Below are positions 29,944-62,299 of a stretch of DNA of 64,000 nt, piece by piece. The notes under the pieces were generated by a model, which was not told the origin of the DNA, searched no databases, and saw only the letters and a list, made by a program, of their open reading frames with translations. Source of the stretch: Lophium mytilinum (lineage: Eukaryota); the NCBI GenBank assembly GCA_010093605.1, contig MU004184.1, positions 2,304,801-2,368,800 of the forward strand, in the 5' to 3' direction. Numbering within the stretch: the first letter of the stretch is position 1; each line of letters opens with the position of its first letter. Position numbers and translations under genes: made by a program.

Positions 29944-30254
29944 GGCTACTCGCGTTGAGACATTGGTTTGCGCCTTTTCCGGCATAGCATAGCGACAAGA
30001 GGCGCTGTGTTTGTAGGTACGTTTTTAGTACGGCGTTGATAAAGAAAAGTACCGAAAGGGGAAGATATGAATTAGTAATCTTATAAGCAGCTCGGGCGTG
30101 ATCTTTTACGCTACATAGATACCATGCATCGAAGCATTCTGTAAGACTTATGCCCATCTTGTGCACGTGCATGCCAAGACTCACAGTTTCATAAACCTCT
30201 TCGTCGCGTTTAGAACTCTTCGCCCTCACTTCCACCTCACCTCACTTGTCAAAT

Positions 30255-32009: not shown

Positions 32010-33232
32010 TCAACCTTGCTTGCTCTTTCTAGGTCTCAGAACACGGGTCGTCACCAGCTCCACAGCCCTCGAAGAAGATGTTTCGTCCTCGCTCTCACCT
32101 GTCAAGTCTGGATCCACCTCCTCAGGCGCACAGCCCTTAGGAAAGAGGTCGGCATCCGTCCTCTCCAACCCCTCAAACTCATCTGCCAGAGCCTTCAACA
32201 TGCTTTCTCCCACGTAATCATGATCTGCGAACTGTTTTGGATAAGGCAGCATATCGTCCATTTCCTTCTCCGTAGCGCCCCACCGGATCGTCGTCGACTT
32301 CGGAGTAGCAGCGATCAACGACTTCATCATAGCTATGAGCTCCCTTGGTGCTTCAGTAGACTTGCCCAGGAAGAAATCTCGTATCGAGCTATAAGTGAAT
32401 TTCTTGCAGTAGCTGAACACCACGCGCAGCTCCTTCAGCTTTGGCATGTAGTGCAGAGCGCGGTATCTTGCAGGGTTCACCGCCAAATTCGCCTCTGTTA
32501 GCCCCCTTCTGCACTTGTCGTAGACTTCCGCATATTCCTGTAGCGGGTTGAAGTTGAAGGTCCGATCAGAATTGAAGGACGGATAGGAGTTGTGGTGAGA
32601 GTATTGTGTCGTCGTCGTAAGATTGAACAGCATGACGAGCCGCTGGATCTGCTCAATATCCCAGTCATGTTCAATGATCTCCTTCCCGTAGAACTCGCCT
32701 TGGTAGGGGGAAGGGAAGGGCGGGGCCCGTCCCCCGTCGAAGTGATGTGGGATGTCGATGTGGCATGCTTCGTAGAAGGTAGCAAGGAAGGTATGCGTGC
32801 GGTACAGAACCTCCTTGGCCTCCTCATTCACCTGCTTGGAACATTGCAGGAGAGCGACGAATCCAGCCTCTTTTTCTCTGCCTATTTTCGGCCCTCGATA
32901 GGTGTTGGCATTGTAGATGACCTTGTTCCGGAGCGTGTCTTCAGCGAGTGGTTTGATGATATACTCGTAGACTAGGTCGCGGAGTTCGCGAGGCAGGTCA
33001 AGGAAGCGGAAAGGGCCAACAGGTTCCCAGAGAGGCTCAGGCTTTTGCTGGGGCGTCGGTTGAGGCTTGGTGGCTTTGCTTGTCTTCCCCCATTTGCTAA
33101 AGTGGGGGGTGTCAACCTTTTCTCCGCGCGTACGCTTCCTAGTAAATCGATTAGGATGGATTCTCAATTGTATGCTTTGCGATGAGGGGGATCAACGTAC
33201 TGAGATATAGACGCTCTAGTAGCGGCTGGCAT
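32010..33232 (-). CDS. F-box-like (FRFLDLPRELR) family protein, paralog 3 of 4
   Basis: Motifs FRFLDLPRELRDLVY, CSKQV, HIDIP, WDIEQI, RYRALHYM and RTDADLFPKG. ATG 33232 with phase-2 intron 33139-33200. Confidence 0.85.
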
Positions 33233-33592
33233 AGCTACGATGACCTGATAGGGGTGTGGATTTTGTGACTACCGGCAAGTTACTCGAGGTTGGGTGGTAT
33301 TCTCAGAGGAGGTGATGGTGCGGGTAAGTGAGTTATCCTTTGTAGGACGGCTGAACCCTTAAGGACACGAACGTCTTAAGGGCATGGTTCTGGTGGTGAA
33401 ACGATTGCAATCTGCGTGTTGCGATCAACTAGCGTTGTCTTTCTTTCAATGGTAACGAGCATTCACTGCCCATTCTCGCCCCACCGTTCAAGACTACCTA
33501 ACCAACCTCAACGAACTCCTTCGTCTTAGTCATTAACACCGTTCTAGAGAACCAGCAACCGCCACATAACGCCATAAACACAACCCCACAAC

Positions 33593-34867
33593 ATGTCTGT
33601 GTCATCTGCGTCCGCCAAGCCTGATTCGCCACACACCACGTACGTGATTCCTCTCCACAATAATCCAACTTTGACTAATGCACTTAACAGGAAGCGCAAG
33701 CTCGACGAAAATTCCATTGTCTGCTTCAGCAACAAGAAGAATAAAATGTCCGAAGATATCAAGTCTGTGTCGGAGATTTCGGTGGAGGCCGAGCTTGTCA
33801 CCCCATTTCGCTTTCTCGATCTTCCTCGCGAACTTCGCGATATGGTCTACGAATACGCATTTCAACCACTGAGCGAAAGCAACTACACTCGTGGTCCAGT
33901 CATCTTCAACAAACCTCACCCGACTTCCTTTCTCCATCCTCCCAAATCCTTTCACGGCCCTCTTAAGAATCTCGCTCTCCTAGGAACCTGCAAGCAAGTC
34001 AAAGAAGAAACGCAAGAGGCGCTGTACAGGAAGTACTACTTCTGGGTTGGCTTCTCCTACCGCTATCGTATTAGACCACCCTCCAAGCGCCCTCCAACCC
34101 TGCGCCACTTCGACGTTCCGGAGACCTACTTCCCAAGTCTGTCGTCGTGCCCGCCAGCCTGCGCAGATCCCTCGCGAATGATCAACCACCAGTGGGACAT
34201 CACACACATCCGCATGTTAATTTTGACGTTCGAATGCACGGCAAACGCCCTGGGAGGCTCCCTGTGGGAAGAGTATGAACCCCTCTGGGACTTCGAAGAC
34301 CCCGATAACAACTCGGTTGCGTATCCATGCCGTTTCAGGGCGCTACACTACATGCCCTCCCTGAAAGAGGTCCGTATCTTGATTCAGTACTCCGACAACA
34401 CATATGGAGCTTTGCGACGTTTCTTGAAGGGAGAGGTGAAGGAGGCGCCGGATACACTGAAGCAAATGATGCGCTCGCTGATTTCTGCGGTTCCGAAGGG
34501 TGTGGAAATCATGTGGGGGATCACTGGAGCAGAGGCGAGCAAGCTCTTCACACACTTTTGGCAGTACTGGCAGCCGGACAGAGAGAAGGCCCTGGGGTGG
34601 TATGAGTTCGCGCTTGCGAGTTGGAAAGTGTTGAAAGGGGTAGTGGACGAAGCTGGAGACGGAGTGGTGCGAACGGATGCAGAGGTGTTTGTTAAGGGTC
34701 ACAGCACTGGGACCGGAGTTGGTGTTGGAGCTGATGAGCTTGAGGACTCTGAGTGCTCTGGAGACTCCGGCGTGTCTAAGGATGCTGATATCTCTCAGAG
34801 CTCTATTGTCTCTCAGAATTTTGATGTCTCTGAGAACTTCACTGGGTCAGATGCTGAAGCGGAGTAG
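33593..34867 (+). CDS. F-box-like (FRFLDLPRELR) family protein, paralog 4 of 4
   Basis: Motifs FRFLDLPRELRDMVY, TCKQV, HFDVP, WDITHI, RFRALHYM and RTDAEVFVKG; in-frame 51-nt phase-2 intron 33640-33690. Confidence 0.85.
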   Translation: MSVSSASAKPDSPHTTYVIPLHNNPTLTNALNRKRKLDENSIVCFSNKKNKMSEDIKSVSEISVEAELVTPFRFLDLPRELRDMVYEYAFQPLSESNYTRGPVIFNKPHPTSFLHPPKSFHGPLKNLALLGTCKQVKEETQEALYRKYYFWVGFSYRYRIRPPSKRPPTLRHFDVPETYFPSLSSCPPACADPSRMINHQWDITHIRMLILTFECTANALGGSLWEEYEPLWDFEDPDNNSVAYPCRFRALHYMPSLKEVRILIQYSDNTYGALRRFLKGEVKEAPDTLKQMMRSLISAVPKGVEIMWGITGAEASKLFTHFWQYWQPDREKALGWYEFALASWKVLKGVVDEAGDGVVRTDAEVFVKGHSTGTGVGVGADELEDSECSGDSGVSKDADISQSSIVSQNFDVSENFTGSDAEAE

Positions 34868-44133: not shown

Positions 44134-46408
44134 CTACTCATCTTCCGACAGGGGCTCCCATACGGGTGACTCCGGAGAGGTTGCTCTAGGCGGCAAGCGG
44201 TGGACATCCTTCCACCCCATGAGGCGATTCGACTCTCCAGGGATACTTGCGGAAGATGTAGCTTTACCGCTCATATCATCCAAAGACTTCACACCGCGTT
44301 TGTTGACGTCCTCGAGCTGCTCATCAGACAGATCCTGCTGCGAACAGAGCTCGAATACGGTCTGCTCCCAGTTTGGGTCTTGCATGTCAAAGATAATGTC
44401 GTGCTGGAAAAGGTAATGATCACGCATGACTTTCAAGCTACCCCTAACAGGCTTTTCTTCTTTGGGACACATGGAGCAACTGATAGCGACGTGCGTTCCG
44501 TCGCTATTCTTGAGTATGCATTTATGCGGCCAGAGAGGGGTGCTCATGAATTTCTTAGTCGTCGCGTCATCGGCCCTCGCGCCTCGCTGTGCACGATAGT
44601 GATACGGGGTAGGAATACGTGGCTCAGTGATATCTGCATCAAAGAACTCTTTCGAACATGTTAGCAGCTTGTTCGGAGGGCTCAGTGTTGTAAATTTACT
44701 TACGATTGTAATTTTTCTCCCCAAGACTCCGTATTTCTAGCACCGTTTCTTTTGACACGACTTGACGGCCACACATTTTCAAGGTTACTTCGGCCGAATA
44801 GGGGTCGTAGATATACGGGATGAGCACATTGTGCTCTACCACCATATGATCCAACATCTTTTTCAAGTTGTTTCTAAAGGCTCGCTCTCCTGTGCAGAAC
44901 TTGCAGTGGATAGCAACAAAAGAACCATCGCGAGCTACGAGAACGTGCTTCACCCACTCGGGGATTATCAAATCTATCCTCGGTATCCACTTTCCGTGCT
45001 CCGCATCGCTATCCGGAGTACGGGGTCTTTGGTAGTCTATCGGTTCATTTACGAACCAATTCAACCACTTTGACTGATAGTCATGTTCGACAAGATGTAA
45101 GTCGTTTTCCGGTCCGTCATTTTCCAGAGGCTCTTCTCTCTTGGAGTGGGAAGCCGCAAACGGTGAAGCTTGCCCTTGGGCTTTGTTGCTTTCGACAGGG
45201 GGCGAGGTAGTGGGCGTGCCGACTCGATCTACAGTGGAATTCGCAGAAGTCTTGTCTAGAACGCGCTGTGACGGGGCGGTGTTCGTTGGAAAGGTGTTGT
45301 GTGTGCGGAGATCATTGAGGCCCTGGGGATACAACTCGGTAGTCATAGGAGTGACTCCTTCGTTTGTATTTTCCGCTCGGCTGTGGGGGTCGGAGGCCGG
45401 TACAGCCAAACCAATTCGCTGGGGAGGTTTCGAGTTTGAAATATAGTCCAGTTCGGAATTTGAAGTATCAGACCCCGATACTCCATCCGAGTCGTCGAAG
45501 CCATCTGAGTGATTGAAAGCGTCTCGAGCCTTAGCTTTGGTGCCGTCGGAAGTTCTGAAGTCGTATCGAGGCTGTTTACCCTGGGATACCGTCGGAGGCT
45601 TGCAACGTATCTTCTTAATGACCGGGCGACCTTGGGCACGTGTTTTCAGAGCTTCGATTTCTGTCGGGGAGTAGGTCTTGTTACGGCAATCGGCAATAAC
45701 ATCGAGAGGAGATAGTACTTGGTCGTGGAATCGGAGTAGATGGGCACGAAAGCCCTCAATGCCATTCAGGTATATCAAGCGCCGCCGATGGTTGCCAGTT
45801 GCGTTGCCGTGACAGACTGGGCAAATTAGATCAACATATTCTCCCTCCGGCGTCCAAACTACTGTAGGATAGCGGGATATCCTATGTCTCGAGGCGTCTT
45901 CAAGCGTAACATCCACGGGAGAACCATCAGGATCCAGCGCCAGCGGAATCGAGCCGGTCAAGTGCTTGGGAGGGGTTACCGCCGCGAATGATATAGCGGT
46001 CTCCGCATTTGGTGTGGGTGGGACGCTTGAAGGATGGGGGGTATCGGCCGTGGGGATATGACATTTAGACAATTCTAGTTTGAGGCGCGTCTACAAGAGT
46101 TAGTCGGGAAACTGTAATGGGTCGTGCCCACGCGCAATGAGATCCACATTCTGCTGGGAAAGAACACTTACATCCATGATATGGCATACGCCTTTCGCTC
46201 CCTCGTAAAGCTTTGCGCGCTCCTTCACGAGTGCTTGAACTTTATTGCTGTCAAGACTCTCGCCGCCCTGCATATCGATCTCAATGTCGATATCACCAAG
46301 GCGTCTTCCGACTCGATAAAGCAGGAGGCCACGAGTTCTCACAAGGTCTGCCGTGGTGCCGAGCGGCTGGGGTTCCTCCTCGATGCCGTCCATGTCAATG
46401 CCGTCCAT
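44134..46408 (-). CDS. Uncharacterised protein with three CxxC...HxxxH zinc-binding modules, paralog A
   Basis: Three listed ORFs join in frame through introns 46091-46189 (phase 0) and 44649-44703 (phase 1). Modules: DLICPVCHGN...GIEGFRAHLLRFH; AIHCKFC...DHMVVEH; AISCSMC...DHYLFQH. Confidence 0.8.
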
Positions 46409-47312
46409 GGCTGATGGAGTGGGTCGTCTAATGACTTCGAGAACTGTAGAATTGCAGGAGACACTCAGATGAGCGGAGCGGGAAGTGAACCTGGATTTAG
46501 GGATGTGGACAAGCCGCCCCGAGGAACCGAAAGTTTTTGCGTGATGACGCAACAGGTAGGAAATTAGCGGCAAACACTTGTGGTGAATTGCTACACCCGA
46601 TGGCCCTAACCACCCTCTAGAAACAAGGCACTTCAACCGATCCCATGTAAGAGAAGAGGCCCCGCTAGGCAACGTTGGACTGGATCGAAACCTCTTTGAA
46701 GAGGTTTCGGTCTAGGATATATGCGTATTGCTCTTTTCTATCGTCTTGAAATTTGGGATTGTGATGAGGGTTACGTTCTGATCGTATTCCGATTATGCAC
46801 ATTCCTAGTGACTCCTTCGATGGCTAAAGCAATCGTCTCCAATGTCAATTCTTCATGTGCCAAAATGTATCACGATGTTATAGCTCCTGTTAGGGTCCAT
46901 GCAGAAATTATATCTCGGTAAGCCAAAAATGTAAACCTGTATAACGGTATAAGGGCTGAGCTGCCGTTAGCCAATATCGAATAATGCTTGGTCTTGATTT
47001 CTCAACACAACGTGGCCTTTAGCGTGTTGAAATACTGCGGGGGACTTGTATTAGCTATGCTAAAAACCCTACGGTGAAGTGATCATGATGCGTTATCCAG
47101 GATCCATCTGTTCGAGCCCACCGATTAAGTAGTAGTGCTGGGGGCGTGCTAAACCCCGGTATCTAGTAAGATTTAGAGAAAATGCGCACCACGTTTCCGT
47201 GCACTTGTACTTCTCATTAACGAGGATACGAGAAGGGAGAGTTTATCGGAGAGAGAAAAAGAGAGGATGCAAAACGTATACGCTTTCCAATTCCGCAATA
47301 TGGGTGGGTTGT

Positions 47313-47585
47313 CAGGGCTGTCAAGCAATCAACCAATTGCTCCGTTGAATTGAATTGATTGAAGTCTTGGCAATCAATTCAATCAATCGGCTATCTGGAG
47401 AAGGTTCAATCAATCAATCAGGAGGGTCTGAATTGGTTGACCATACAAATGACTGTCAATATTGTCAATATTGCCAATATTGACGGTTTCAATCAATTCA
47501 ATCAACTGAGACCTCTGCTGACTAAGCCGTCAATTCAATCAATCTCGAGGGGGCTGATTGATTGATTGATTGCTTGACAGCCCTG
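47313..47585. mobile_element. hAT-type MITE (273 bp)
   Basis: 20-bp perfect TIR CAGGGCTGTCAAGCAATCAA; 8-bp TSD TGGGTTGT/CGGGTTGT (7/8 match); subterminal CAATTCAATCAA repeats. Confidence 0.88.
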
Positions 47586-48129
47586 CGGGTTGTATAAATT
47601 AAACGTGATAGGCTCGCCTCGCCTCTATCGCACCCTTATAAGCATACTAAAGGAAGTTCTAAATAGTTCCTACTTGGGAACGCCCATGTGCACGGACGAT
47701 GAAATTACGTTCGCGCCGTGACGGTTTCATGTCTCTTATTAGACTCTGTAGCACTGGCGAGATGAGGAACTATTCTAAAAGAAGCGAAAAGAGGCATCCT
47801 TGGGCTCTGTCGATGGAAGTGGAAAGCTAAACTTGGATGTGCTATGCTAGCGCCTACTCTATATAAGTTGTGAATGAAAGTTAAGTTATATAGTTAGTGT
47901 AATTTTCGCAGCGACCACCAATCACACCCGCTTAGAGCAGCGAGCATTTCGCTCGTTAGTCCGTTGGTCGGGCGGGCTCCGGTCAGTTGTACCTGTGCAC
48001 TCGGTCTCACGCCTCCCACAACAGATTACCGTGAGGAGGTCGTTACAGCTGCACTTGTATAATCGGTCGGTACCCCTAACCCTGCTACGCTGATGGATAA
48101 TGTAGCGCCCTGGTCTAAGTAAAGTAGGT

Positions 48130-48257
48130 GATATCCTACTGGAGCATCTAGGCTTAGCCTGGAATTGGATTATGCTCTTTGCGGTGCCCTTACTGAGTGT
48201 CCAGGCCTAGCCTGGGTTCGAATCACGCTTAAGGCACTTCACCTTTTTTGCTTTTTT
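48130..48257 (+). repeat. tRNA-like (B-box-containing) repeat / degenerate tRNA pseudogene, copy 1
   Basis: GGTTCGAATC at 48215-48224 followed by T-runs; ~100 bp similar to 54648-54765; TGGTCTAAG (tRNA-Leu D-loop-like) just upstream; no complete cloverleaf found. Confidence 0.6.
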
Positions 48258-49723
48258 ACTTTCGCTTTGCTCGTCACCTAACTAACGATCGTCTAATTAT
48301 GGAGTTTTCTTGGGATTACTATCCTAAACACATTAGCGCAACCACATCTTCACTTCTTCCCGCATATTAGGTGGTCTAGGCGGACAGCGAAGCTATCTAG
48401 CGCAGGGTCACAGGACGTTTTTAACACCCGAGACTGCTGTGAGAGCATGAGCTACTCGCTGATCCTCGAATATTGAAATCTGGTCTCTGAAGAGGCCTGC
48501 TCGAAGATAATCTGCCCCACCCCGAGCGATTCTCAGGTTGTCACCCCATGCTTCGAGGCGCACCACCGGGAAGATCAGGCTCTGTCGGAGTTCTCGCTGT
48601 AACTGAGGGACCCAACACGCGCCCGAGATCAAGCCTGTCAATATTTCGGAGTTTGTGCGTTTGGCCGGGGTCCTAAAGGTCGCATAGATCCTCTAGTATC
48701 GAAAGAGGATATAGATCGAGCTATGGAGCAGCATTCCGCTAGCCGGGACAGCATTCGCTCCGGCAGTACAATCCCAGACAGTTTGGCCCAGGGAGCGAAG
48801 CCGTTGCTCAGGAGTAAGAGTCTAGTCTCGTAGAATTTATCTCGTAAGCATATTCGATGGAGGGAGTCGTGAATGTTTCCCCTCCCGGAACTACGACGGC
48901 AGGGCTAGGCCGAGTAAGATCACTTTCTCACTCAGCAGTATATACCCAATTAATCGAACACCTTAGAAGCCCGTCTGTCCATGTTGAAGCAGAATTGAGA
49001 ATATTATCCGAGAGCGGCTTTGCAACGACAGTCAGTCAGAGCGAGCTCATCGACGCCGCGCATCCCCGTAACCCTTCACCAGAGACCGGAGCCAGCTTAA
49101 ATTTTCACTCATGAACACCTGGTCTGTCTCCGAGGACACAAGGAAGTGTGCTTGAATTTTGAGGGAGTGCGGATCCTTAAGCCAGGAGAGGAGATATCGC
49201 AGCTGCCGCCTTGCAAGTTACATCCTCAAAGCGCCTGACACTCGTTCCGGAAGACCTATTCATGGCGTCTCTGTTGCTATTCGATGGGGGGACTGCCCTC
49301 GAGACATCCCACCCTGGCGCGCTGGGCTGAATAGTATGGGTGTTCATCTCATCAACATGGCTATGGTTTCAGCCTAGAACATATAAGATGGAGAGGGTTA
49401 TGTTCTGGAACCGCAAGCACGAAATGGAACCCAAAGAAAAAACTGCGGCGCATGCAGCAAACGGGGATTGCTTTCGACGGTACCTCAAAGCTACATAGAG
49501 ATATTGTGCAACATAAGGTACACCAAACTCGAATGGTGAGCAACATTTAAATCACAAGCGTTTTAACTTCACGCAATTGATCGTACATATAAGCACTGAA
49601 CGCAAAGAGTGAATTGAGTACTTGGTGGTTCGCGAGTGCTATCGCGGTACAGTATCTTATCACCTAACGTACGGCCTATGTACCTCATTTGTGAAGGCAG
49701 TAAGCTGAGAGACTACTGCATTC

Positions 49724-51568
49724 TTAGATGGCGCGTCCTGATGCTTCTATACTCTCGGCCGGAAGAGCGAACACACCGACAGATAAGCTCTTCTCATTGC
49801 CCTGGTCGACCGGTGTCCCTGGCTCGGGCGAGTCCGACGGAGCCGGGAGCTGATGCTTGCGCTTCCTAGCCAACTTTTCCCTATGGGCGAGAAAGGCGAT
49901 GGTGGTGAAGACGATGATGTTGAAGCCCGCGACTACGGCGGCGGCGCGGTTGCCAGGAGTGACGTATGGTTGGTGGATTTGCTGGAACCAGACCAGCGGG
50001 ATCCAAGCTTGGAAGGTGTCTATACATAGCGTTGTTAGCAAAGTTGCAAAGGTCTTGGTCTAAGTATACTCACATTGGAGAGTGTTCATTGCGGCTGCAG
50101 TGAAGGCTCGTTGCTCGGCATTATCGGAGATAAGCTCTGCCATCCATGCCATTGTCAAGGGCACCATACTTCCTCCGATGGATGATACGATGTACAAAGG
50201 TGCACGATGTGAGAAAGGGCCCATGACCGGGGTGACAACCAGCAAGACGAACACAACGATGGCGATCATGTTGGAGAATAGAATGACGGGCCATCGGCGC
50301 CCTCGTAGTGGCCCGTCGGAGAGCCAAACGCATGTCAGAGAGTACACAGCCGTGAAAGCGTTACCGAGTGTGGGGTATTCGTTCTGTCAAGTGATATCAG
50401 TATCGGGCTTTACCATGCGTTCAACACAACGATCCGGAAGAGAACTTACGATTTGGGCGATCGAGTAGACCTTTGGCTTCCCCTTCTTGTTGTGCGCCTT
50501 GAGCCAGAAGACAAACGCCGTGAAGGGTTGGGACCCAAATGGCTGCATCGTGAAGATGAGTGTGAAAAGGAGGGTTTTCCAGCTCGTCAGAAAGCCGAGG
50601 AAGGTTTTGACGGTGTACGGCTTGCCTTCGGGTTTGCGACCGGCCCTTGCCATTCTTTCTTTGGCAATTTGGATATCCTATGTAGGTGTGAGATGTGTTT
50701 AGTTCCAGCTCTGCGCACCACATGAACACTTACACGCTCGCTGAAAATCCAGCTGGGTTTGGCGGTCCCTGGCGTGTCCGGTAGGAAGAAATAGGCCAAG
50801 ATGGCAATAGGCAACGAAATGACACCATTGATGACTGCAACATGTTAGCCAGAGGCTCACGACGTCTTCGGTAAGCGATCTCGTACCAAATAACCATCTC
50901 CATCCAGCAAGACCCGCATGACCGTCGAGGCCATTGTAGATACCAGCTTGCAAGAAGCCACTGAAGATGGGCGCAATCGAGACAGCTGACTGCAGGATAC
51001 CGTTTCGCTTTCCAAGCTCGCCTGTCGTAATGTGTTAGCAATCGTGTCCTGAATAGGCAAAGGATAGCAGCGTACGTTTATTATACCAAGACCCGAGCAC
51101 GTAGTAAAGAGCAGGCCAGTATCCCGCCTCGAAAAGACCAACGATGAATCGAAGTCCTAGGATTGCATGATATGACTTGGCACCAGCTAGGGCAAACGTA
51201 AAGACGGTCCAGCCAATCTCTTGAAAGGGGATCCAGATGTGAGCAGGGACGCGAGTCAGGATGATGTTGGACGGCCACTGCCCAATGATATAACCAACGG
51301 TCCAGGAGACGACGATGTAGTTGTACTGATTACCATAGAGGCCGAGGTCCTCTTTCATGCCGGAGACGAAAGCATTGGTGATGTTGGAGGTGTCGATCCA
51401 CTTGATCAGCATTCCAAGGGTTCCGAAAGTCAAGAGCGTAGCGTCCAGCTTGAAGAGAAATCTTCGTTCCTCTTTCGATACATCGGCGGAGTCCCACAGC
51501 CATCCTCGCCAGCTACGGGAGACAGTTGAGGACGTCGAGGACGTGATTGATGCGGCTTTCTCAGCCAT
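49724..51568 (-). CDS. MFS transporter of the allantoate/pantothenate permease family (Liz1/FEN2-like)
   Basis: Motifs ERRFLFKLD, IDTSNITNAFVSGMKEDL, GYIIGQWPSN, LRFIVGLFEA, LGSWY-ELGKR, GLAGWRWLF and FFLPDTP; multiple GT-AG introns. Confidence 0.9.
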
Positions 51569-53211
51569 TGTGGGCCAGTGAAGATGCGAACTGCTTATGA
51601 GAAGAGTGGTGGGCAAGGAAGGCCAAGATTGTTGGACAGGAACATGGACTTCAAGCTGAAGATATAGAAAACATGGTTCATATCTAGAGATAGCTTTTGC
51701 CGCCGCTGCAATTTTTTCAACAAGGCTAGATGCTTTGCTTGCTCTGTGGCGCACACGAAGTAGAGTCCTGACGCACCACATACCCCAAAACTGCAAGCGC
51801 TTCCAACCTGTTACTCCTTACCGTATGAAGCCCGGACATGCTGCACTGATTACGAGGTAAGACACCCTCGGAAAACAATACCGTACCTGCTGTTCCATAC
51901 AACCTAGCTCCCCAGCTGCGATTGGTCACCCGCCCCTGTTACCGCTATCAACGGCCTTGATCAGTGGTATTGAACAGTAATTCTCATAGCTCCCGCAAAC
52001 AAGGTACCTTGGAATAAGCCTGCCCCTGCCCGTGGCGTCTAGCAGAAAGAGATAGTTGCCGTGTCTGGGTTGTGCTAACAATCGCGGTACGCGTCTAGCT
52101 GATTCGCAAGAGGTGGCAATTATTTCGAACGAGCAGCGATCTGGCGACGCTAGGTTCTAGAATCTCGATCTTGGCCAATCCACTGGAGCCTCTATACACA
52201 GGTGGCTGTTATGACACCACCTTAGGCAGGAATGAGAGCAACGATAACAGCGTGTTTAGCAACGCCGTGCATATTGGAAAGATAAGGGAGCTCAGAAGCA
52301 GGTCATGAGGTCTGATTTGAGGTTCGGTCTGATTGTTCAGCAGAGGGGAAGAAGGCTAGATGTTTTCGTTGCCATTGCCCATTTTCCATGCCGATGACGT
52401 GACATGGTACTCCACCGACCTCGGTACCGAATTAATGTCTAGCGTCACTCGGCTAGCAATTCACCCCTGTTGTGTGGTGGGACGACCCGAGCATGTGGGG
52501 GAGCTGCAGCGAGACCCCAACAAAACGTGACGAGCTTCTGAAGCTCTACTACCTAAGTGCCTACCGGGCTTACGCCGAGGCCACAACGGCTAAAAGTTTT
52601 GTCAACGAGGGTAGAGCTGATCGAGCTATTCAAGCCCTCAAGCACAGCGAGATTACAAACCGCCTGCACTTGAATGTTTTCCAGGTAGCCTAAAGGGGCC
52701 ACACTGTTCTATTATTGAAGTGCAGCTTCAAATGGTCTTGATCAAGCGTCGTTTCGCCCTGCTTGCGAGAGAATATAAGAGGCTCTCCACGGAAAACATT
52801 CACCAGAGAGGGAAAGACATAGCAGCACGTGCACAGCTAAGTAATGTTCTTTCCGGGGCAAAAGGGGGCTTCTCGTGCCCAAAGCGAACTCGAGAGGTAG
52901 CGGCATACCGACCGCGAAGACAACCTTTCTGACGCAAAGCTTAAAGCCCCAACGGAATCGACGGCGACGACGAGGCCGCGGAGGAAGAGAGCTTATTCCA
53001 CCAGGAGGATCAGCGAGAACCGTAAACATTGCCAAATGATCGCAGTGGTTGAGACGTGGTAGTCGTCGTATCAGGTGTTCTGTCCGACAGACTTGCCTCT
53101 AACGATTATGGTGCGTAAAAGAGAGCTCGTAGAAAAGAGCGTATAGTTCAGAAAAGCAAAAGGAGTTCATTCGGCCGAGGGTGAAAATTGAGGATCTTGA
53201 CCACTATCCAG

Positions 53212-53438
53212 AAGTGACAAACGTAGGTCTGGGCACACTGGCTCGCCACTGCTTACGGTACCCTGACAGTGTTTCGAAGATCTACGGGCGCTGTCGAGTT
53301 CTAAGCAGTGTAGATCAGACTGCCTCTTGACTAGTCAGCTGCTCAGCAGCCAGGCTACCCCCCACAGAGGCGTCAAGTAAGCAACATTGGCGCCAAGCAG
53401 TGCCGGATCCTTGGGCCCAGACTTATGATTTAGTCCTA
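53212..53438. mobile_element. Tc1/mariner-type MITE, copy 3 (degenerate, inverted relative to copy 1)
   Basis: GTCTGGGCACACTGG..CGCCACTGCTT, TTTCGAAGA, AGACTGCCT, AGCAGCCAGGCTACCCCC and GCCCAGACTT all match the reverse complement of 5495-5711 in order. Confidence 0.8.
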
Positions 53439-54647
53439 TATGCGGGATCTCCGTTGTTCTCTTTATTGTTGGCGGTCGCCCCTTCGCGTCGCAGCATAAT
53501 CATGGTGTTGAGCGCGTTGCGCAAGCCCCTTGGTCGTGTGTAGCAGTTGAAAATGCAGATTAGTTAATTCTAGAATGGACTGGAGCTTCAAAGGTGTATC
53601 CACGGGTGAGGGAGTTCGCATGGTTCGACCTCGGCGCAGGCATCTAGACCCAGCCCGTCGGGTGGCTAGCCACGTGCCAGCGTGCTCGTGAACCACGGTA
53701 GCGGCCTCCTTTCTTAACAGCTCATTCGTTCTATATTTGGACGTCTCGGCGTGAGTCAATAGCTCGCATCTCTGCTGAAGTCACGCTCTTGTAGACCTAT
53801 ACAACGGTAAATCCACCTTCTCTGGCAGACAATCTGTTGTTGCGTTTCTCCTTCATTTCTTCCCTCCCACCTTCGACTTCTCATCGCCATTCCTGCGTAT
53901 CGCGGCCCTCTTACATTCATCATCCACCTCACGATGGTCGTTGCTTCTACGGGAAGCAATTCGTGTACTCGCCTTCTGGACACGGTGGCACTCGCGCGAA
54001 GCACGCATTGAGCGTTCTGTTGCCGTGGACACTGTCATCATTGTCGGAACCATGGCCACCGTATCATGGTGGTCTTCTTGGGAGCATACATCCAGTCACG
54101 AATGCAGGGTTGCGAATCGCCAGTAAACCCCCGCGAAGGCGATTGATATGGTTCAAGAAGTCACCATTAGTTTCACGATCAATCCTGATTCAATCAGAAG
54201 ACTATGGAGCTTATCATGTGATTGTGGCGTGAAAGCTTCAGCTGGGAGTGATCATGGAAGATTGCTTCTGCCAAGTTCGTAGCGATGAGGTGATTCTCAT
54301 AGCGAGCATTACAAAAATAATGGAGGACCGGTCTAACAAGACCGATACTTTCAACCTGTGCCATTGCTCTATGAGTTTTCGTAAATCTGCTTGGAGGCGT
54401 TGCGTCTAATTAGATTAGCTAGAGAAAAGACTAGCGATCAGTATCTTTCACCTTGAATCGATCAAGCTCCAAATTCAATTTAAATACCCCAATTCATGGT
54501 GCATTCTTTATAAGAGGTGTGAATGATCATCAGACTATACAGTTGGTTTAATTTTCGTAGCCCCACCAGTCTTAGGGACTGGAACATTTCGCTTGTGACT
54601 CTGTGGGTAGACGTACCGATGGACTGATGATGTGGTTGCTTCTCTAA

Positions 54648-54765
54648 GATATCCTTCTGGGGCGTCCAGGCTTTAGCCTGGAATCGGATTACGCACCTTT
54701 CCCGAGTGTCTAGGCCTAGCCTGGGTTCGAATCTCACTTAGCGTTTTTCTCTATTTTTACTTTTT
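54648..54765 (+). repeat. tRNA-like (B-box-containing) repeat / degenerate tRNA pseudogene, copy 2
   Basis: GAGTGTCTAGGCCTAGCCTGGGTTCGAATC is nearly identical to copy 1; B box at 54724-54733; downstream T-runs. Confidence 0.6.
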
Positions 54766-56115
54766 GCTCCAACGAGGCTATGTGCCAATTACGTGATTTT
54801 GTAGCGTCCGTGTGGTCACTAATATCTCTCTAGGACGTGTACCCACTCCATTGTTCTTCACAAACCTAGCATCCAGGTCTATTTCTCATCTCCGCGTGAC
54901 TTCATGTGTATCTTCAGTGGCCTGTCAGCTGTGCCGACGTTTCGAGTTCATGTGCTCACTACCCCCATTTTGTCTGTAAAGTGACTAGAAGTCTATGTTT
55001 CGATTTGCGAATCTTAGGACCTCGATACAGGTGCGAGTTAGTTTCGTCGATGTTGGGACTGGTCGTTATAGCTCGTGCTTGGGTCAGCGAGTACGTCTTC
55101 ACAAATCTGTACCGGCTTACGGTGGTGAATATAACGGCCTGTTCCCATTTCGTCGAGTCCCTTCCCCTCCGTACGCCCTTCAAAAGCCTTTGAAGGTCCT
55201 TGCAGTTCCATGGGCTACATAGGCAATGTAGCCCGGCACCCTTTTCCAGTGTCCAATGTAACTTTCATAGACCGATAACCGCCGGACTAGGCTTCATCTA
55301 GCGGTGCCCTCTCCAGGCCCCTTATTCTCTTCGAAAGCTTAGGTAGTTCAGTGCTCGAAGAAAGCGCCTTTCACTCTCTCCGCTCGTCTGCCAGAGTACA
55401 ATCTCGCACATTTCGTTGCCAGTGCATGTGACAAGCCCAGGGTTTCTTCTCGGCCCCGTGTACCGCTCGAAGACGCCGCGCGATTTGCTTCAAGAAATCG
55501 AGATATAGGAGCCGTGGACCGGTAAAGCCGCGTGTAGCTTGGTTACTTCCGTAGTCAAGGCCTCGTTGTCTAATTTGGGGCCATGCCACGCTCGAGGGAA
55601 GATCTCCGGTGGAGATTAGGGCTCGCATTTCGTCGTCCAAGTATTAACAGTCGTACTTAATGCCCGCGGAGTAGCAGCAGGGGAGATGTGGTTCGCCGTG
55701 TGGAAGAAGAAGGCACGTGGCTTGATGATGTTGATGGGCATGCGGATTCTGGATGTTATTCCAAGTAGAGTATCGTCTGACGGAGTGTAAGGCGAAGGTT
55801 ACGGGTTTGAAGAACCTGCATGGAGTATTAGTATGTCTTTACACTTTTTTGTGATATTACCGAAGGAAGATTTGGCCATTCAGTTTTGAACGCAAGAAGC
55901 TGCCGCAATAGTTCCAGTATCAGGGACTTTAGCTTCGTGTCGTCGCACTGATCACGCATGACGATAATTTTGATTTGCAAGAGGAATCAAGTCCCTTTCG
56001 CGATGGGTCGGTACAGCTATCCGACTATCTGACACTCCCTCAACACATCTAGCCCTGTAGCAGCTGTCCATGCCGGTCGTTCAGGCATTTCTTCTCACTC
56101 TCCAAGCTAGTCTTC

Positions 56116-58811
56116 TTACTCATTCTCATGCTCAGCGCCAGCAGGAAGGTCCAATTCGATACGTATATCGCGTCTAGCTCTCCGGCGGGCAGCCCTCCTT
56201 TCATCAAACTTCCTAAACGCGTTCTCGACCTTCAGTATATTATGGTCGTTATATCCACGCCATTCCCTATACTGCGGCCCTGTCTTCTCCTCCAAAGCGT
56301 CATACATGTAGATAACTCTACACTCTTCCCATTCTTGCAGGATGGTCATGCCTGAGAGCGCGCTGGCAGGCTCCCACGTACAGCTGTTTATGTCGTCAGT
56401 ATGCAAGAACTTGACATATGGTTTTGCGGGCGGCCGACGTACCGATGCAATCCCTGATCTGCCCATTTGATCAAATACAGCATTTCGCCGCCCTCGTCAT
56501 TTTCGGCGAGGATTCGCTCGATAGGGAACTCCTCGCTGGAACTGTAATCGTTGGAGTCGGCTGTAGAAGTCACAGAAATGGTACCGTCGTCGCTGTCATC
56601 CGCCGCTTCCCCTATTTCCCATCCTGCATTTCACATTAGCACCATACCCGCACTCATTCGAGAATAACCACATACCATAATAGTAGTCACGATCCATAGC
56701 ATAGATGAAATCAACTAGAATTGGCGGTATCATATCGCCGGCACAGTCCTCAATGAGTTTTGCTTCCCAGTTTGAGGTTGCGAAAAACTTTCTTCCGTGG
56801 TCGGTTATGTAGTGATCCCGGAGGGTGTCGATGTGGCGGGGTTTGAAAGGTTTCTTTTGGTAATGGCAGATTCTGCAGCGGATTTCTCGGTAAGAGCCAT
56901 TGGGGAGTTTTATGATGGGGGCCCAGGCTAGGAGTTCTGCTTCTTCGAAGGAGGATAGGAGAGGTTGTTTTGGGGGTGGTTGCGTTTGATTCTCGATGGT
57001 GATGGGTTCTTCGTATTTAGCGAGGGATGTGTCTTTTGCGGCGATAAGGTGGTCTTCTCCGGTGATGGCATTTTCATCTTTGGCGAGTGAGGAGTTTTCT
57101 TCAGCGATCGGGTGGACTCCTTGAAGTGGCAAAGGGTGGTTTTCTTGATGTGGGATAGGGTACTCTTCTTGAAGTGGGATAGGATGATTTTCTAAATCTA
57201 GAATAGAATGATCTTCTGATGGCGAGATAGGAATATGCTCTTGTTCAGGAGGCTCTGGTTGTTCGATGGGAGAATCAAATCGCACTCGCTTCGGTGGGTT
57301 ATCCCGCGCTCCGCTTTGCTGGTGCAAGGCTGCAGGCCATGGGCGTTTTGTCAGCGTGTGCTGCTCTGTTTTGGTATCGTACGGGGAAAAAGATGAGCTT
57401 GATTGGCCTGGGGGGACGGAAGATGTTGAACGAGCGTGTGATGGGGTCCTATGGTTCGGAGCAGCTGAGGGAAAGTGTAACATGCCTTGAGGCCCGACGG
57501 CAATGCTGTCCAAATCCAAATCTCCAAGCGGGAGTACTTCATCACCGGCAGCGCTCTGCTTGCATGCGCCGATCTTCTCCCGGTCGTATGTTTCGGTTGA
57601 CAGCGTGGCGTGTGACCGCTCTAACCCGATATCATTCACACGTGTCTCTTCCACAATCCGGGTCTCGTTAGCCAGCTGGACTTGCCCTTCTGTGCTGAGA
57701 GAACAGACGTCCCTGACAGGAGCTGCAAGGCCTGCATGTGTACTCGAGTCTGCCGGTAATATATGAGGCGATGTATGGTGAAGGGGAGGAAATGTGCGGT
57801 CTTCGAGTCCCGGCTCCAACGTCGCGCCGCCACTTGTCAGAACATAAGTGGAAGACTGACGCAGTTGACGAAAAAAAGGAATTTCGGAAACAGTCTGCGT
57901 CTTAGTAGGTAGAATTGGTTGTTTCGGTTGATCCCATGGTCCGTGGGCCTCGCCTGCCGCCTTACAACGCCGCCTTGTGGTCTTGGGTGCATTCCGCTCG
58001 CCAGTTAAAAGGGCAGAAACATCCGATTCAGAACCGAGGTCTCTTCTTGTACACAGGGCTAACACTGCACGGGCGCTGTGTGGTTGGTTCTCACCGTGAT
58101 CCCGCGCGATATGGCGTTGGAAACCCTCGACGCCTGTGATCAGCTCGAGATCACAGCTTCCGGGCATGCTATAGGCATTACCATTACATATGAAACATTG
58201 CAACTCCACATATCTTCTATCAGGAGTTCGAACTATACTCCCCCATGCCGAAAGTCTCGATAAAAGACCTTCTACGGAGTTACTGTCCCAGTCCGGGCTT
58301 CTCTGTTGGTAATAACGAGCAGCGGGGATGACAGGGACAGGAGCCAGATATATAGGCGCGTCTTCTGGAGTTGCAGCGGTACAGCTGGCCATAGAAGGAA
58401 CACTCGTTGGTCTAGCGATAGGAGCATCCCCAGACGCTTGTATTTGGGAGTTACCGTTGTCGTTGGTTGTCCTATTTATAAGGTTTCGAGCATTTGTATA
58501 GGCCTGTAGAAGCGTCTAGTAGGGTTAGAACAAGCCTTTTAGGTAGGCGCTTTGTAAAGCTGAGCTCGGGAATATCGAAGTGAACTCACATGTCTCTCCG
58601 TGGCAAGGCGTTCGAATTCTGCAAGAATATTCTGCTCGTGAGCAACAATGGCTGCAAGCTCTTGTGGAGGAAGGGTTCCGCGAGTTTTGTCGTCCAATCG
58701 GGCTCGGGTATGCTGCCAATGCCCTTCAAGTTGTGCTTGCGATCGCTGAAGCTCTACGAAGTTGGCGTGAACCACCCTCTCAGAGGTCAGGTCCGTAACA
58801 TTACGGTCCAT
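56116..58811 (-). CDS. Uncharacterised zinc-module protein with C-terminal chromodomain, paralog B
   Basis: Four exons joined in frame through introns 58516-58589, 56624-56675 and 56384-56442. Two CxxC...HxxxH modules, then EEFPIERILAE...LYLIKWADQGLHRCTWEPASAL...ILQEW (chromodomain). Confidence 0.82.
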
Positions 58812-59620
58812 ATCTTCCGTCTGCAGCGTGAGGGCGTCACTGTCAGATATTTGAAGAGGTTGACAGGAGGGAAGCAGTAAAGGACACGGTGGCTAGAAAC
58901 GGAGATGGTGGGGAGAGGCATTCAAGCACCACATACCTCTGTACGATGGCCTTGTTTGGCGGGGGCTGCGATGTATTAAGTAGTGCTTCCGGGCCATTTA
59001 CTATATAGTAGGGTAATTCTGAGGAAGACTGCGGTGAATCGGAACGCTCGGGGACTATCCCGGCAAACGCGATATTCTATGAGTGGGATCCAGGCGTCTT
59101 TAATACCGACTCGGCCTTGTGAATTTGAGAGCTTATCGTCGTCGAGTAATTGTCGGTATGTGGTATCGTATATGAACGGGCTTCCGGGGCTTAGCTATCA
59201 ATATTGCTTCAATCGATTCAATCAAGTTAGAGGAGCACAGGACTACACTGTAACACTATATTGATCATACCACGAAACGTAAATTGCAGGAGGTGTGAAA
59301 CAGAGCTCGACCAAGTGAGTTTCCTAGCTAATGCAAGCTTAAAAATTTTAGTTGTAGGCTCAAACGGCAATTACCGGGGACACTTGCGGACGCATTGAGG
59401 CAGTAGGTCAGCACGAGTCGTCCGATTGAGGACGCCCTCTCATATTACTCTCAGCCCAATGCCTCCGATCGACGACTGCATTTGAGTTCAGCCCCGCTTG
59501 GGTGGATATAATTTCTGCATTCCGCTACTTTGCAGTGTCCTCCCCCGCGATCCAGGGACAAATCATAAGCCAGCAAAGTACCCGCAAGTGTTCAACAGAC
59601 TATTCCCGCCATTTCCAACT

Positions 59621-61636
59621 CTAACAAGCGCGGCCCACGTCAAAGATCTGCTTAAGCTCGCAGAGGGAGAGTGCTTTACCTGCACAGATATTGATCAGGT
59701 CTGCTTTCCATTTGGAGCCAGTGAAGAGAAGGCTACGATGATATTTGATGTAGTGATCACGCAGGTCGTCGATATGCCGGGGCACATGTTTCAGGCCATC
59801 TTGGTCGCATCGCACACAGCGCAGGCTCCAGAACTCGCCGTTTTCCAGTTCCACGATTGGTGCCCATGTGAGAAGCTCCGATACCTCAGCTTCACTTATG
59901 ATAGAGGTGTATGGCTGACGAGCTTCTTCGATCGTAGTTCCGACATGCTTGTCCGTGGGCTCTCCTTGTCCTTCCTCTAACGTTATCTCTTCTCTGTCTG
60001 CGGGCTTATCCTCTTCTTCCAAAGTTTCAATTTGCTCAATAGGATAATCAATTCCGGTATGCTCGTCCATGGGATGTACTAGTCCTTCCGTTGACGTAAA
60101 GCCTTCCCCTTCGTCTGCGGGCTTATCCTCTTTGTTGAGAAGTTCGGTTTGCTCAATGGGGGAATCGGACCGGACTCGTTTGCTTCCATCATGCTGTTCT
60201 TTAGGAATATCTGTGAAAGCCGACAGGAAGGGCCGCTTGGAAGGATCGGCTGGCCGCAGGTCACCTAAGATCAACCGAGCGTCAATTTCGTCTGAAGATT
60301 GCTCTAGAACATCCTTCTCCTCTTTGCTACGCTGGGGATCATCTTGAAGATACGTTTCCTCTGGATATTCCAGTCCAGAGAGGCCATCAGAGGCTACGAC
60401 GCGATCGGCGCTCTCATGAACGCTGAACGACTGAGGACCTTCCGAGAGGCTCACTTCAGGTATTTCGTCAGGAGCAATAGGTTGTGGACTCGCGGAAATG
60501 CTCGACTCCTCGTGCGGCGTAGTAGTGGGTTGCGAACCGGCTTCATAGGCCCCAAGATTGGGCTCCAGATCTGCTTCTTCGAGGGCAGCAAGAAGAGCTG
60601 TAATGCCTTGCTCTACGATTCGATCGATTTCTTGATCTGAAGGGTCTACCGCAAATGGAGCATCCGTTAGAGCATCCCAAGGTAGCTGAATTGGCTCAGT
60701 ATCCGACAGAAGGTGCGAGGCTGATGTATCCATGCTCTCTAGCTCGGCGATATTTCGCAAGGCAGGCGCAAAGAGCCCACTGGAGTTGCATATTACAACG
60801 GGCTGGAGTAGACATGGTACCTGCTCGATTTGAGAGTCGCCTGCCATCAGAGCAACAATGTCTTCTTCAGAAAGCGTCCGCATCCAACATCGCGTGACCA
60901 CCTCATTGAGAGAGAGTACCGTATCATGATTACGTTCCAAGTGGTGACGAAACCCCTCCGAGCCCCTAATGAACCGACCCCCCAGCGTATTGCCGTTGCA
61001 CTCGCAACACCGAAGCTCGAGGCATACTTTCTCTAGCGTACGTATGATAGTCGGCCACTCTGCCAGATCGATCTCATCTCCATCGAAGGGTGTAACCGTG
61101 CCAGAAACGCTTGTGGTAGACGGTTGTGTTGGAGGTCTTACGGGTCCGTCAGGTTGGGCTGGGACAGTGAGCGTGTCTTGCACTGATCTCGAAGATTCGC
61201 CAGTAGCATTGTCATTGGAACGTCCGGAGAGGGAGGCTGCCATAGGCCTTGAGTTCTGGGAGATAGTAGCCCCGTCGGTACCCCAGTTTGTTGGGTTGAG
61301 TACATTTGCACAATCTTGCAGAAGTGTCTAGTATAGTTAGCATTATACTTAGATTATCAACATATATTAAACCATTGGGCGTTGGTCATTTATTCTGCCA
61401 AGGAAGAAACTTACAAATTTGGCGCCAGAAAGCTGATGAAGCCTTGCTAATAACTCGCGATATTGCTTTTTAAGTCCCAGAGCCTGCATATGCGTACAGG
61501 GATTGGCAGCGAGGCTCTCTATCTGGCGTAACAAATCCCCGCATTGGCGGAGAAGCTGTGACTCGATGTCACTCAAGGATGTATAGTAGGTGAGAACATC
61601 CTTCGGAGAAGCGAAGTTTCGTCGATACATGTACAT
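59621..61636 (-). CDS. Uncharacterised protein with two CxxC...HxxxH zinc-binding modules, paralog C
   Basis: Exon 1 (ATG 61636) joined by phase-0 intron 61328-61414 to the 540 aa ORF. Modules: ELRCCECNGN...GSEGFRHHLERNH; SLRCVRC...PRHIDDLRDHYIKYH. 3' end may splice further. Confidence 0.8.
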
Positions 61637-62299
61637 GGCTTGCAACCACAGCAACAGCACCCTTTCCGAAAAGATATGCAATTGTAGAGAGACTGGGAAA
61701 TTTTGATTGGAGTAGAGGATATGTGGAAAGGGAGACAGAACCCGGTAGTGGTGGTATAGGCTGGAGGAAGAGAGATTTCGGCACGATTTTGGGATTCCCA
61801 GGGAGGCTTTATAGTACTGTGTGACAGAACACCTGTGGACGTGGCCCATTCACCCGCTCAGGGCAGCCAACGAGAAGTGATATCACACTACCTCTGTAAA
61901 GCATTATGTGCCCGTCCGTGAGGTTGTTTTCGCCATTTTTTGCTAGTGCTATCTCCTGAGTCTGCTCGTCGGTTTCTGCGGAGGCTAGCGCTTTCCCAAG
62001 CACTCATTGCCATTTACCCGATGCGAGTAACACAACTCTCTAGTGGTGATTTCCCATACCCTTTAGTATAGAACCTTATACCAGTGAATGGAAGGACCGC
62101 TGCCTGGGAATGTAGCACACAAGCCTCTATTAGTTTCTCTGAACTGAGTGCAAGCGTTCAAACAACCGGTAAGTGAGCAAAGTTCCTGGAATACTGGTCT
62201 AAACAATGATTCTTCAGCTTTGCTTATCATCCTGTAGTGACCTGCCTCCGATGAATTTGTCGAAAAGCTGCCAGGATAAAAATACAGAATTTCAAACAG

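What the first reader, a model, noticed from the sequence alone, without database searches (positions are those of the whole stretch)
44134..61636. Three-member family of multi-zinc-module nuclear proteins, one fused to a chromodomain
Seen in sequence: three minus-strand genes (44134-46408, 56116-58811, 59621-61636), split into separate pieces in the ORF track, splice into the same architecture. Each has a short helical exon 1 and a phase-0 intron followed by Thr-x-Leu. Next is module 1 ([P/G][T/S][V/I][V/I].T.....[D/E]L.CxxC.GN...G.EGF..H[L/I]...H), then a long disordered linker. Then comes module 2 (W...[I/V]....G.[F/Y]..[I/L].CxxC...L.DH[Y/M]...H...[W/Y]...C). After a shared phase-1 intron, A carries a second copy of module 2 while B carries a canonical chromodomain, so the last exon has been swapped. 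B and C share a bipartite NLS-like KRP..(x13-14)..KRVR.DSPIEQ. Established knowledge: chromodomains bind methyl-lysine histones. Inference: a locally expanded, fast-evolving family of chromatin/DNA readers with an atypical long-spacer C2H2 finger, sitting among MITEs and TE relics. It could be a TE-silencing or genome-defence factor or a domesticated TE product. I do not recognise the family.
Basis: partly seen in the sequence, partly recalled or inferred. Interest (0 to 1): 0.75.

Follow-up and report, generated by a model that had tools for sequence, protein, structure and literature searches.

The report
Ahc1-like zinc-finger family capturing chromatin readers
These three fungal genes belong to a large, undescribed family built from repeats of one unusual zinc finger related to a subunit of a histone-acetylating complex, and one of them has picked up a slightly damaged histone-reading domain copied from another gene, which suggests, but does not show, a role as chromatin adaptors.

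Summary
The three genes are real. They splice cleanly (712, 836 and 642 aa) and show purifying selection. The domain's closest tested relative is the zinc finger of Ahc1, a subunit of the ADA acetyltransferase complex (profile match 96%; 27 bits against at most 9 for 37 classical fingers). Members do not carry the Pfam AHC1 label. BED similarity is weak and no transposase domain was found. B's chromodomain was copied at DNA level, intron included, from a resident chromodomain-CCCH gene. A paralog elsewhere carries a Bdf1-derived bromodomain instead of the finger; the scan noted what is probably that cluster before, on other DNA of this genome. Best reading: non-catalytic nuclear adaptors (coiled coil, Ahc1-type fingers, swappable last exon), about 50%. 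TE silencing or domestication is unsupported. Function is untested and no expression data were available.

The parts
44134..46408 (-). Gene A, 3 exons, 712 aa: helical exon 1, three zinc modules, no KRP..KRVR block
   Evidence: (identical to P0026)
45602..45913 (-). A zinc module 1 (canonical CxxC-GN...G..G..H-x4-H...C form), aa 139-242
44704..44983 (-). A zinc module 2 (divergent, Asn-less form), aa 449-541, followed by the phase-1 intron
44263..44574 (-). A zinc module 3 in the last exon, sister of A module 2, aa 567-670
   Evidence: 97/95 support, long branch
47313..47585 (.). 273-bp hAT-type MITE, 25-nt terminal inverted repeats, 7/8-matching 8-bp target duplication; not part of the genes
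49724..51817 (-). Unrelated MFS transporter gene between A and B (approximate limits)
56116..58811 (-). Gene B, 4 exons, 836 aa: helical exon 1, two zinc modules, NLS-like block, captured chromodomain
57964..58284 (-). B zinc module 1, aa 152-258
57259..57348 (-). B basic bipartite NLS-like block KRP-x16-KRVR..DSPIEQ (function inferred)
56680..56961 (-). B zinc module 2 (Asn-less form), aa 593-686
56119..56585 (-). Captured segment (acidic lead-in, chromodomain aa 718-768 with F720/W741/Q744, following helix), split by the donor's own phase-2 intron at 56442-56384
59621..61636 (-). Gene C, 2 exons, 642 aa: helical exon 1, two zinc modules, NLS-like block
60803..61099 (-). C zinc module 1, aa 151-249
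60149..60238 (-). C basic bipartite NLS-like block (function inferred)
59627..59905 (-). C zinc module 2 (Asn-less form), aa 549-641

Best explanation
A, B and C are intact members of an old Dothideomycete gene family that grows and shrinks by duplication. The ancestral gene has a short coiled-coil first exon, a phase-0 intron, disordered linkers, one to four copies of a ~90-aa zinc module, and a phase-1 intron after the last module. Shown: the module is an elaborated relative of the Ahc1-type C2H2 finger (beta-hairpin, CxxC, inserted hairpin, helix with H-x4-H, second helix with a fifth Cys). Shown: B's last two exons are a DNA-level copy of the 5' end of a resident chromodomain-CCCH gene, plugged into the phase-1 slot. 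Inferred: the proteins are non-catalytic nuclear adaptors; the coiled coil assembles them with partners, the zinc modules bind protein (or nucleosome) surfaces and do not read bases like a classical finger, and captured reader domains (chromodomain in B, bromodomain in a paralog on contig C19) change which chromatin they go to. B's chromodomain probably binds methyl-lysine weakly or with altered specificity.
For: Ahc1 link: the family profile scores the genome's AHC1 ortholog finger 26.8-27.2 bits, against at most 17.2 in 2000 shuffles with Cys/His fixed and at most 9.0 for 37 classical fingers; all 118 of 118 extracted AHC1 fingers score 20.0-27.3; hhalign 96.4%, E 1.1e-9 against 19.6% for classical C2H2; both AlphaFold models give strand-strand-helix-helix with the same spacing. 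Ahc1 is an ADA-complex subunit (PMC3159981, passages). Gene structure: first intron phase 0 in 12 of 12 models with an upstream exon; next intron after the last module phase 1 in 8 of 8 public models that have one. Chromodomain donor: 41% over 138 aa, E 2e-35, same intron position and phase, pN 0.37 vs pS 0.69. Bromodomain paralog: N-terminus matches the neighbouring family gene (score 91, 0 of 2000 shuffles), bromodomain 55% to a Bdf1-like gene. P0065 joins two modules to a PHD-like finger (E 7.5e-5, just under cut-off). Against base reading: charge +0.8 +/- 4.4 per 100 aa (n=252) vs +8.4 +/- 5.4 (n=37); Gly at His-7 in 206 and at His-4 in 163 of 252.
Against: What Ahc1's own finger does is not known to me, so homology gives a setting, not a mechanism. 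The AHC1 profile is narrow (all Dothideomycete-like, Neff 1.9) and in the reverse direction no family domain passes 20 bits (best 19.0; 10 of 277 above 15). None of 6 members listed carries PF25909. The first-exon helix does not match Ahc1's N-terminal coiled coil (0 of 14 significant), and is only loosely similar among members. Reader fusions are rare (Chromo in 1 of 150, PHD-like in 1 of 150), and unrelated genes in this genome also carry chromodomains or an Rsc7 domain, so capture need not reflect this family's function. Gene A has no KR..KRVR block. zf-BED matches 22 of 150 relatives.
Confidence: 0.5

Rival explanations
1. The modules are BED-like DNA-binding fingers taken from a hAT-type transposase; the family binds TE ends or boundaries and B couples this to H3K9me silencing.
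For: zf-BED matches 22 of 150 relatives at E<=0.01, 8 of them above the cut-off, and one genome member at 23.9 bits; weak hits in A and C. A hAT-type MITE lies 0.9 kb upstream of A. Tandem copies and H-x4-H spacing suit DNA binding.
Against: No transposase catalytic or dimerisation family in 150 relatives or 48 neighbouring ORFs. The two hAT relics score at most 0.8 bits (degraded, so a weak test). Most BED matches start at profile positions 10-18 and miss the N-terminal part. Modules are not basic. The MITE family is genome-wide. The Ahc1 finger scores far higher.
Confidence: 0.17
2. The family is a birth-and-death repertoire of small zinc-module proteins with a non-chromatin or minor role; the chromodomain and bromodomain fusions are incidental chimeras in a genome where many young genes pick up domains.
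For: Fusions are rare (1 of 150) and no second zinc-plus-chromodomain protein was found among 1111 candidates of 807-2569 aa. B's cage is incomplete. RING-chromo and other chromo fusions, and an Rsc7 capture, occur in unrelated genes. Dead copies exist (L117, L141).
Against: The captured segment kept its frame, splice sites and 44% identity while synonymous sites nearly saturated, which needs long selection. The same holds for the bromodomain paralog. The nearest relative of the module is itself a chromatin-complex subunit.
Confidence: 0.2
3. The proteins are sensors or decoys: copies of conserved nuclear domains (Ahc1 finger, chromodomain, bromodomain) act as bait for foreign effectors or selfish elements, as integrated decoys do.
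For: Clustered, fast-diverging paralogs; a degenerate reader domain fits a bait; HeLo and HET genes lie near 2 of the 16 fetched loci.
Against: No signalling or cell-death domain in any of 150 relatives. HET and HeLo genes are common in these fungi (recalled). No polymorphism data.
Confidence: 0.08
4. C and B are one gene making a 1468-aa protein with four modules and a chromodomain, as in the public model P0002.
For: The public annotation says so; C and B are on one strand 809 nt apart; a GT..AG pair 859 nt apart exists.
Against: B has its own ATG, its own family-type exon 1 and phase-0 intron, and a TATATA about 200 nt upstream. C ends in a clean stop after a complete module. A relative (P0108) aligns from residue 1 to both B and C separately. 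The family's other introns are about 47-125 nt long.
Confidence: 0.08

Closest known systems
Ahc1 / AHC1-like C2H2 zinc finger (Pfam PF25909), subunit of the Gcn5 ADA acetyltransferase complex
   Same: DG.WV.L.CxxC start, GF..H-x4-H helix, second helix ending in a conserved Cys; same predicted element order; helical N-terminal region, then disorder, then finger.
   Different: AHC1 is one conserved gene with one finger and a 13-residue Cys-His spacer. The family is multi-copy, has 1-4 fingers, a 17-26-residue spacer with an inserted hairpin and a near-invariant Asn (253 of 277), an extra strand and helix, and lacks the rest of Ahc1. The genome keeps its own AHC1 ortholog (L064).
BED zinc finger (Pfam PF02892) of hAT transposases, BEAF-32 and DREF (family members recalled)
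   Same: CxxC, long spacer, H-x4-H; weak Pfam matches in 22 of 150 relatives.
   Different: Matches cover mostly the C-terminal two thirds of the profile; no transposase; an extra Cys helix; neutral charge.
Pezizomycotina chromodomain-CCCH proteins (donor L105/L106; P0272, P0273) and HP1/Clr4/Chp1-type chromodomains
   Same: Acidic D.SIS(V/L)TST lead-in, chromodomain, following helix and the intron inside the domain.
   Different: B has only the first ~140 aa, at its C-terminus, with Gln for the third cage Tyr. It is not CDP-2 or Cbx2, whose chromodomains are C-terminal in otherwise unstructured proteins (PMC9720130, section 10), and the donor's function is not known to me.
Classical C2H2 fingers (PF00096)
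   Same: Cys2His2 ligands; weak structural echo (Kaiso 5vmu Z 2.8, rmsd 3.1, 49 aligned).
   Different: Longer spacer, no TGEKP-type arrays, Gly at two base-contact positions, 90-aa fold; profile match only 19.6%.

Membership tests
AHC1-like C2H2 zinc finger (PF25909) | Carries the Pfam family at its threshold | tested here: not met
   0 of 6 members listed (incl. gene A) carry it, while 120 of 120 AHC1 hits do. The model itself was not in the local Pfam copy.
AHC1-like C2H2 zinc finger (PF25909) | Detectable homology of the finger (hairpin, CxxC, GF..H-x4-H, fifth Cys helix) | tested here: met
   same element order
Ahc1 protein | Conserved N-terminal coiled coil and single-copy orthology | tested here: not met
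   0 of 14 N-termini match the AHC1 coiled coil; a separate ortholog exists at L064
Ahc1 protein | Membership of the ADA (Gcn5-Ada2-Ada3-Sgf29-Ahc2) complex | not testable with these tools
   needs pull-down
BED zinc finger (PF02892) | Pfam cut-off 20.6 bits | tested here: inconclusive
   Window modules 8.2 and 11.4 bits; 8 of 150 relatives above cut-off as summed repeats
BED zinc finger (PF02892) | BED fold | tested here: inconclusive
   No BED chain listed; small domains score low
Domesticated hAT transposase | Transposase catalytic or dimerisation domain in the protein or locus | tested here: not met
Canonical (group I, HP1-type) chromodomain | Pfam Chromo above cut-off | tested here: met
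   33.3 vs 25.1 bits (P0002)
Canonical (group I, HP1-type) chromodomain | Three cage aromatics (PMC9720130 section 10; PMC3605345 passages) | tested here: not met
   F720 and W741 present; Q744 aligns with the third aromatic of CBX5 and with Tyr in the donor, P0272 and P0273
Canonical (group I, HP1-type) chromodomain | Binding to H3K9me or H3K27me peptides | not testable with these tools
   needs a binding assay
Classical C2H2 finger (PF00096) | C-x2-4-C-x12-H-x3-5-H and Pfam match | tested here: not met
   Spacer 17-26 in 237 of 252; no PF00096 hit at E<=5 in the window exons

The most novel reading that the evidence does not exclude
The Ahc1 finger, a docking module of the Gcn5 acetyltransferase machinery, was freed from its single-copy parent in Dothideomycetes and multiplied into a toolkit of adaptors that compete for or redirect Ahc1's partner. 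By swapping terminal exons they send that activity, or block it, at chromatin chosen by a captured reader: a methyl-lysine chromodomain in B, an acetyl-lysine bromodomain in the C19 paralog. This would be a lineage-specific, modular re-targeting system for histone acetylation, and would reveal what the Ahc1 finger binds.
Probability: 0.15. Interest if true: 0.75.

Novelty: new variant of a known kind. Interest (0 to 1): 0.48.

Why it matters
It defines a well-folded ~90-aa domain family (611 representatives, named hits in Venturia, Cercospora, Pseudocercospora and Septoria among others) that current Pfam misses, ties it to a poorly understood subunit of a histone acetyltransferase complex, and gives a dated-by-structure example of a chromodomain captured with its intron. 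If the adaptor reading holds, it is a way for one fungal class to rewire chromatin targeting. If not, it is still a useful annotation: a new domain model and a correction of a fused public gene model.

Tried and rejected
Expression: no RNA holder listed for 55800-62000; the one same-label run laid on the region covered none of the three genes; no evidence either way. Complex prediction of two module copies plus zinc: no answer. Fold searches: no match at E<=0.001 in PDB or BFVD; best VIA Z 2.8 for the module and 2.6 for the AHC1 finger; this does not show a new fold. PDB sequence searches with the module profile, the AHC1 ortholog and P0065 found nothing significant, so the BAH-like look of P0065's N-terminus is by eye only. 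Metagenome DNA scan with P0009 found no relative. The idea that the chromodomain donor is CDP-2 (recalled) was dropped after PMC9720130 section 10 placed CDP-2's chromodomain at the C-terminus; the primary HCHC paper was not held. The idea that the Rsc7-capturing gene of e1-7640205 belongs to this family was tested and rejected (best 4.1 bits). Homology of exon 1 to Ahc1's coiled coil was rejected. Tiling about 350 kb more of contigs C4 and C19 added only one broken copy. No tRNA or Rfam hit in the region. Literature: searches (listings only) showed no description of the family; (AHC1-like, PF25909, Ahc1 zinc finger, AHC1 homolog) returned 0 papers; subscription journals and supplements were not searched, so a mention in a genome paper's tables cannot be excluded. 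In the domain tree 16 of 31 inner branches are unresolved. From the 150 relatives, 277 of 298 domain hits above 20 bits were aligned, and 252 of those fitted the pattern used for the counts.


Full report
Observation. Spliced at GT..AG sites with CTAAC/CTGAC branch points they give 712 aa (A), 836 aa (B) and 642 aa (C) with no internal stop. A is identical to a public protein, P0026, which its source labels a hypothetical protein of Lophium mytilinum, a Dothideomycete. The public model P0002 joins C (aa 1-623), a short linker and B into 1468 aa. I read them as two genes, because B has its own family-type first exon and a TATATA about 200 nt upstream, and P0108 from a related species aligns from its start to each. 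No transcript data could settle this. Synonymous sites between paralogous modules are near saturation (pS 0.69-0.87) while pN is 0.36-0.47, so these are old, selected genes and not pseudogenes.

One domain, not two. Profiles of 'module 1' (22 copies) and 'module 2' (5 copies) match at 97.4%, E 1.3e-11. All seven window modules match a profile built without this genome's matched proteins. 'Module 2' is a local variant that has lost the Asn found in 253 of 277 domains; the five copies in A, B, C and a fourth gene D group together (93/93, with long branches). D lies about 2.3 kb beyond the window end on the + strand and has its phase-1 intron at the same aligned position as A and B.

Family size. 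Two single-protein searches and a profile scan of the fetched loci give 19 loci outside the window, so at least 22 with A, B and C, in clusters on contigs C4 and C19 and singly on C5, C6 and C17, plus one broken copy. This is a lower bound. The profile finds 611 representatives at E<=0.001 in the 50%-identity library; I saw the best 150, of which 121 have two to four copies. Of 30 looked up, 17 carry an organism name; four were checked as Dothideomycetes and I recall the rest as such; 13 have no taxon. The gene plan is shared: the first intron is phase 0 within a helical exon in 12 of 12 models that have one, and the next intron after the last module is phase 1 in 8 of 8 public models that have one.

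What the domain is. AlphaFold gives a confident 96-residue fold (pLDDT 88.7): hairpin, CxxC, a second hairpin, a helix carrying H-x4-H, a second helix, a strand and a last helix. A fifth Cys follows in 210 of 252. Pfam gives no family at cut-off for the window modules. The Atlas listed PF25909 (AHC1-like finger) as a weak lead at 0.77. I found the genome's AHC1 ortholog with a recalled motif and confirmed it: 120 of 120 listed homologs carry PF25909. The family profile scores its finger 27 bits, above 2000 shuffles with Cys and His fixed (best 17.2) and above 37 classical fingers from the same genome (best 9.0); 118 of 118 AHC1 fingers score 20.0-27.3, as high as the window's own divergent modules. 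Profile against profile gives 96.4% versus 19.6% for classical fingers, and the AHC1 finger model has the same element order (pLDDT 63.5 overall). Against this: the AHC1 set is narrow, the reverse search peaks at 19 bits, 0 of 6 members carry PF25909, and the first exons do not match Ahc1's coiled coil. So the module is a relative of the Ahc1 finger, and the proteins are not Ahc1 orthologs. Ahc1 is a subunit of the Gcn5 ADA complex, tethered by Ahc2 (PMC3159981, passages). zf-BED is the other recurring hit (22 of 150, 8 above cut-off), but no relative has a transposase domain and the genome's two hAT relics score at most 0.8 bits.

The chromodomain. B's last 136 residues match the N-terminus of a gene on contig C15 at 41% over 138 columns, E 2e-35, including the acidic lead-in and the helix after the domain. 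Both have a phase-2 intron at the same codon inside the chromodomain, so the copy was made from DNA, not from mRNA, and it is not a retrotransposon chromodomain. The donor is a long chromodomain-CCCH protein with homologs P0272 and P0273. The copy has stayed under selection (pN 0.37, pS 0.69). Methyl-lysine binding needs three aromatic residues (PMC9720130 section 10; PMC3605345 passages). B keeps F720 and W741 but has Q744 where CBX5, the donor and both homologs have Phe or Tyr. It is therefore not canonical, and binding may be weak or altered. No second zinc-plus-chromodomain protein was found.

A second capture. Between two family genes on C19 lies a 270-aa gene with a 47-codon helical first exon and phase-0 intron, whose N-terminus matches its neighbour (score 91; 0 of 2000 shuffles, though heptad repeats inflate such scores), but which carries a bromodomain 55% identical to the first bromodomain of a Bdf1-like gene in place of the finger (the name Bdf1 is recalled). 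An earlier scan note, e1-7640822, seen afterwards, appears to describe this cluster. P0065 joins two modules to a PHD-like finger. However, unrelated genes here also carry chromodomains or an Rsc7 domain, so reader capture is not special to this family.

Surroundings. The window is gene-rich, about 50% GC, without a RIP signature. An MFS gene separates A from B. One 273-bp MITE is real; its ends match a 3.6-kb hAT relic and it has 25 matches genome-wide. Of 48 ORFs near 16 family loci none is a transposase.

How it most likely works. Shown: gene structure, domain identity, Ahc1 kinship, DNA-level capture, selection. Inferred: nuclear location (NLS-like blocks in B, C and D; none in A), a coiled coil for assembly, zinc modules that bind protein and not bases (near-neutral charge, Gly at His-7 and His-4), and re-targeting by captured readers. 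I put this adaptor reading at 0.5, an incidental-chimera reading at 0.2, the BED/TE-defence reading at 0.17, a decoy reading at 0.08 and the fused-gene model at 0.08.

Verdict. A real, apparently undescribed domain family (searches; subscription journals and supplements not covered) that is a new variant of a known kind of finger, with a clean case of chromodomain capture. Function is untested. Interest 0.48.

Noticed in passing
L042:3081-4860 (+), about 2.3 kb beyond the window end: Gene D (P0021, 559 aa), the fourth member of the local cluster, with a classical KR-x10-KRVK NLS and the same phase-1 intron position as A and B.
   Followed up: yes
L047:5523-6394 (+); broken copy at L141: Family-type first exon fused to a Bdf1-derived bromodomain instead of the zinc module; a second, broken copy lies on contig C1.
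   Followed up: yes
window 47313-47585; L165:1677-5266: hAT-type MITE; both ends match a 3.6-kb degraded hAT element on C21; near-identical copies on C15 and C5, one with a perfect 8-bp target duplication.
   Followed up: partly
window 48154-48256 and 54673-54765: Two ~79%-alike stretches with a GGTTCGAATC B-box-like motif and a T-run, like decayed tRNA genes or SINEs; ARAGORN and Rfam found nothing.
   Followed up: partly
window 53299-53390: Short multi-copy stretch hit by several high-depth contigs of run X1; probably a repeat remnant.
   Followed up: no
L159:4695-5846 (-), L161:4682-6505 (-), L160:3003-4910 (+): Other genes with C-terminal chromodomains: one behind a RING-like finger, one behind an unrelated domain, one in a long acidic protein. 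Chromodomain fusion seems recurrent in this genome.
   Followed up: no
L105/L106 (contig C15): Conserved chromodomain + CCCH fingers + unnamed C-terminal domain protein (homologs P0272, P0273); no Pfam for the C-terminal part; role unknown.
   Followed up: partly
L050:4022-5413 (+): Two zinc-module ORFs in one frame separated by a single stop codon: an unrecognised intron, read-through or a recent break.
   Followed up: no
window 7231-8499, 19424-20560, 30214-31215, 32013-33191, 33578-34864: Five dispersed DUF7730/2EXR-like genes, all below cut-off or borderline: a second expanded family in the same window.
   Followed up: no
P0065, P0031: Relatives with other partners: PHD-like finger with a BAH-looking N-terminus (by eye only) in P0065; CUE-like repeats in the Venturia protein P0031.
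   Followed up: partly
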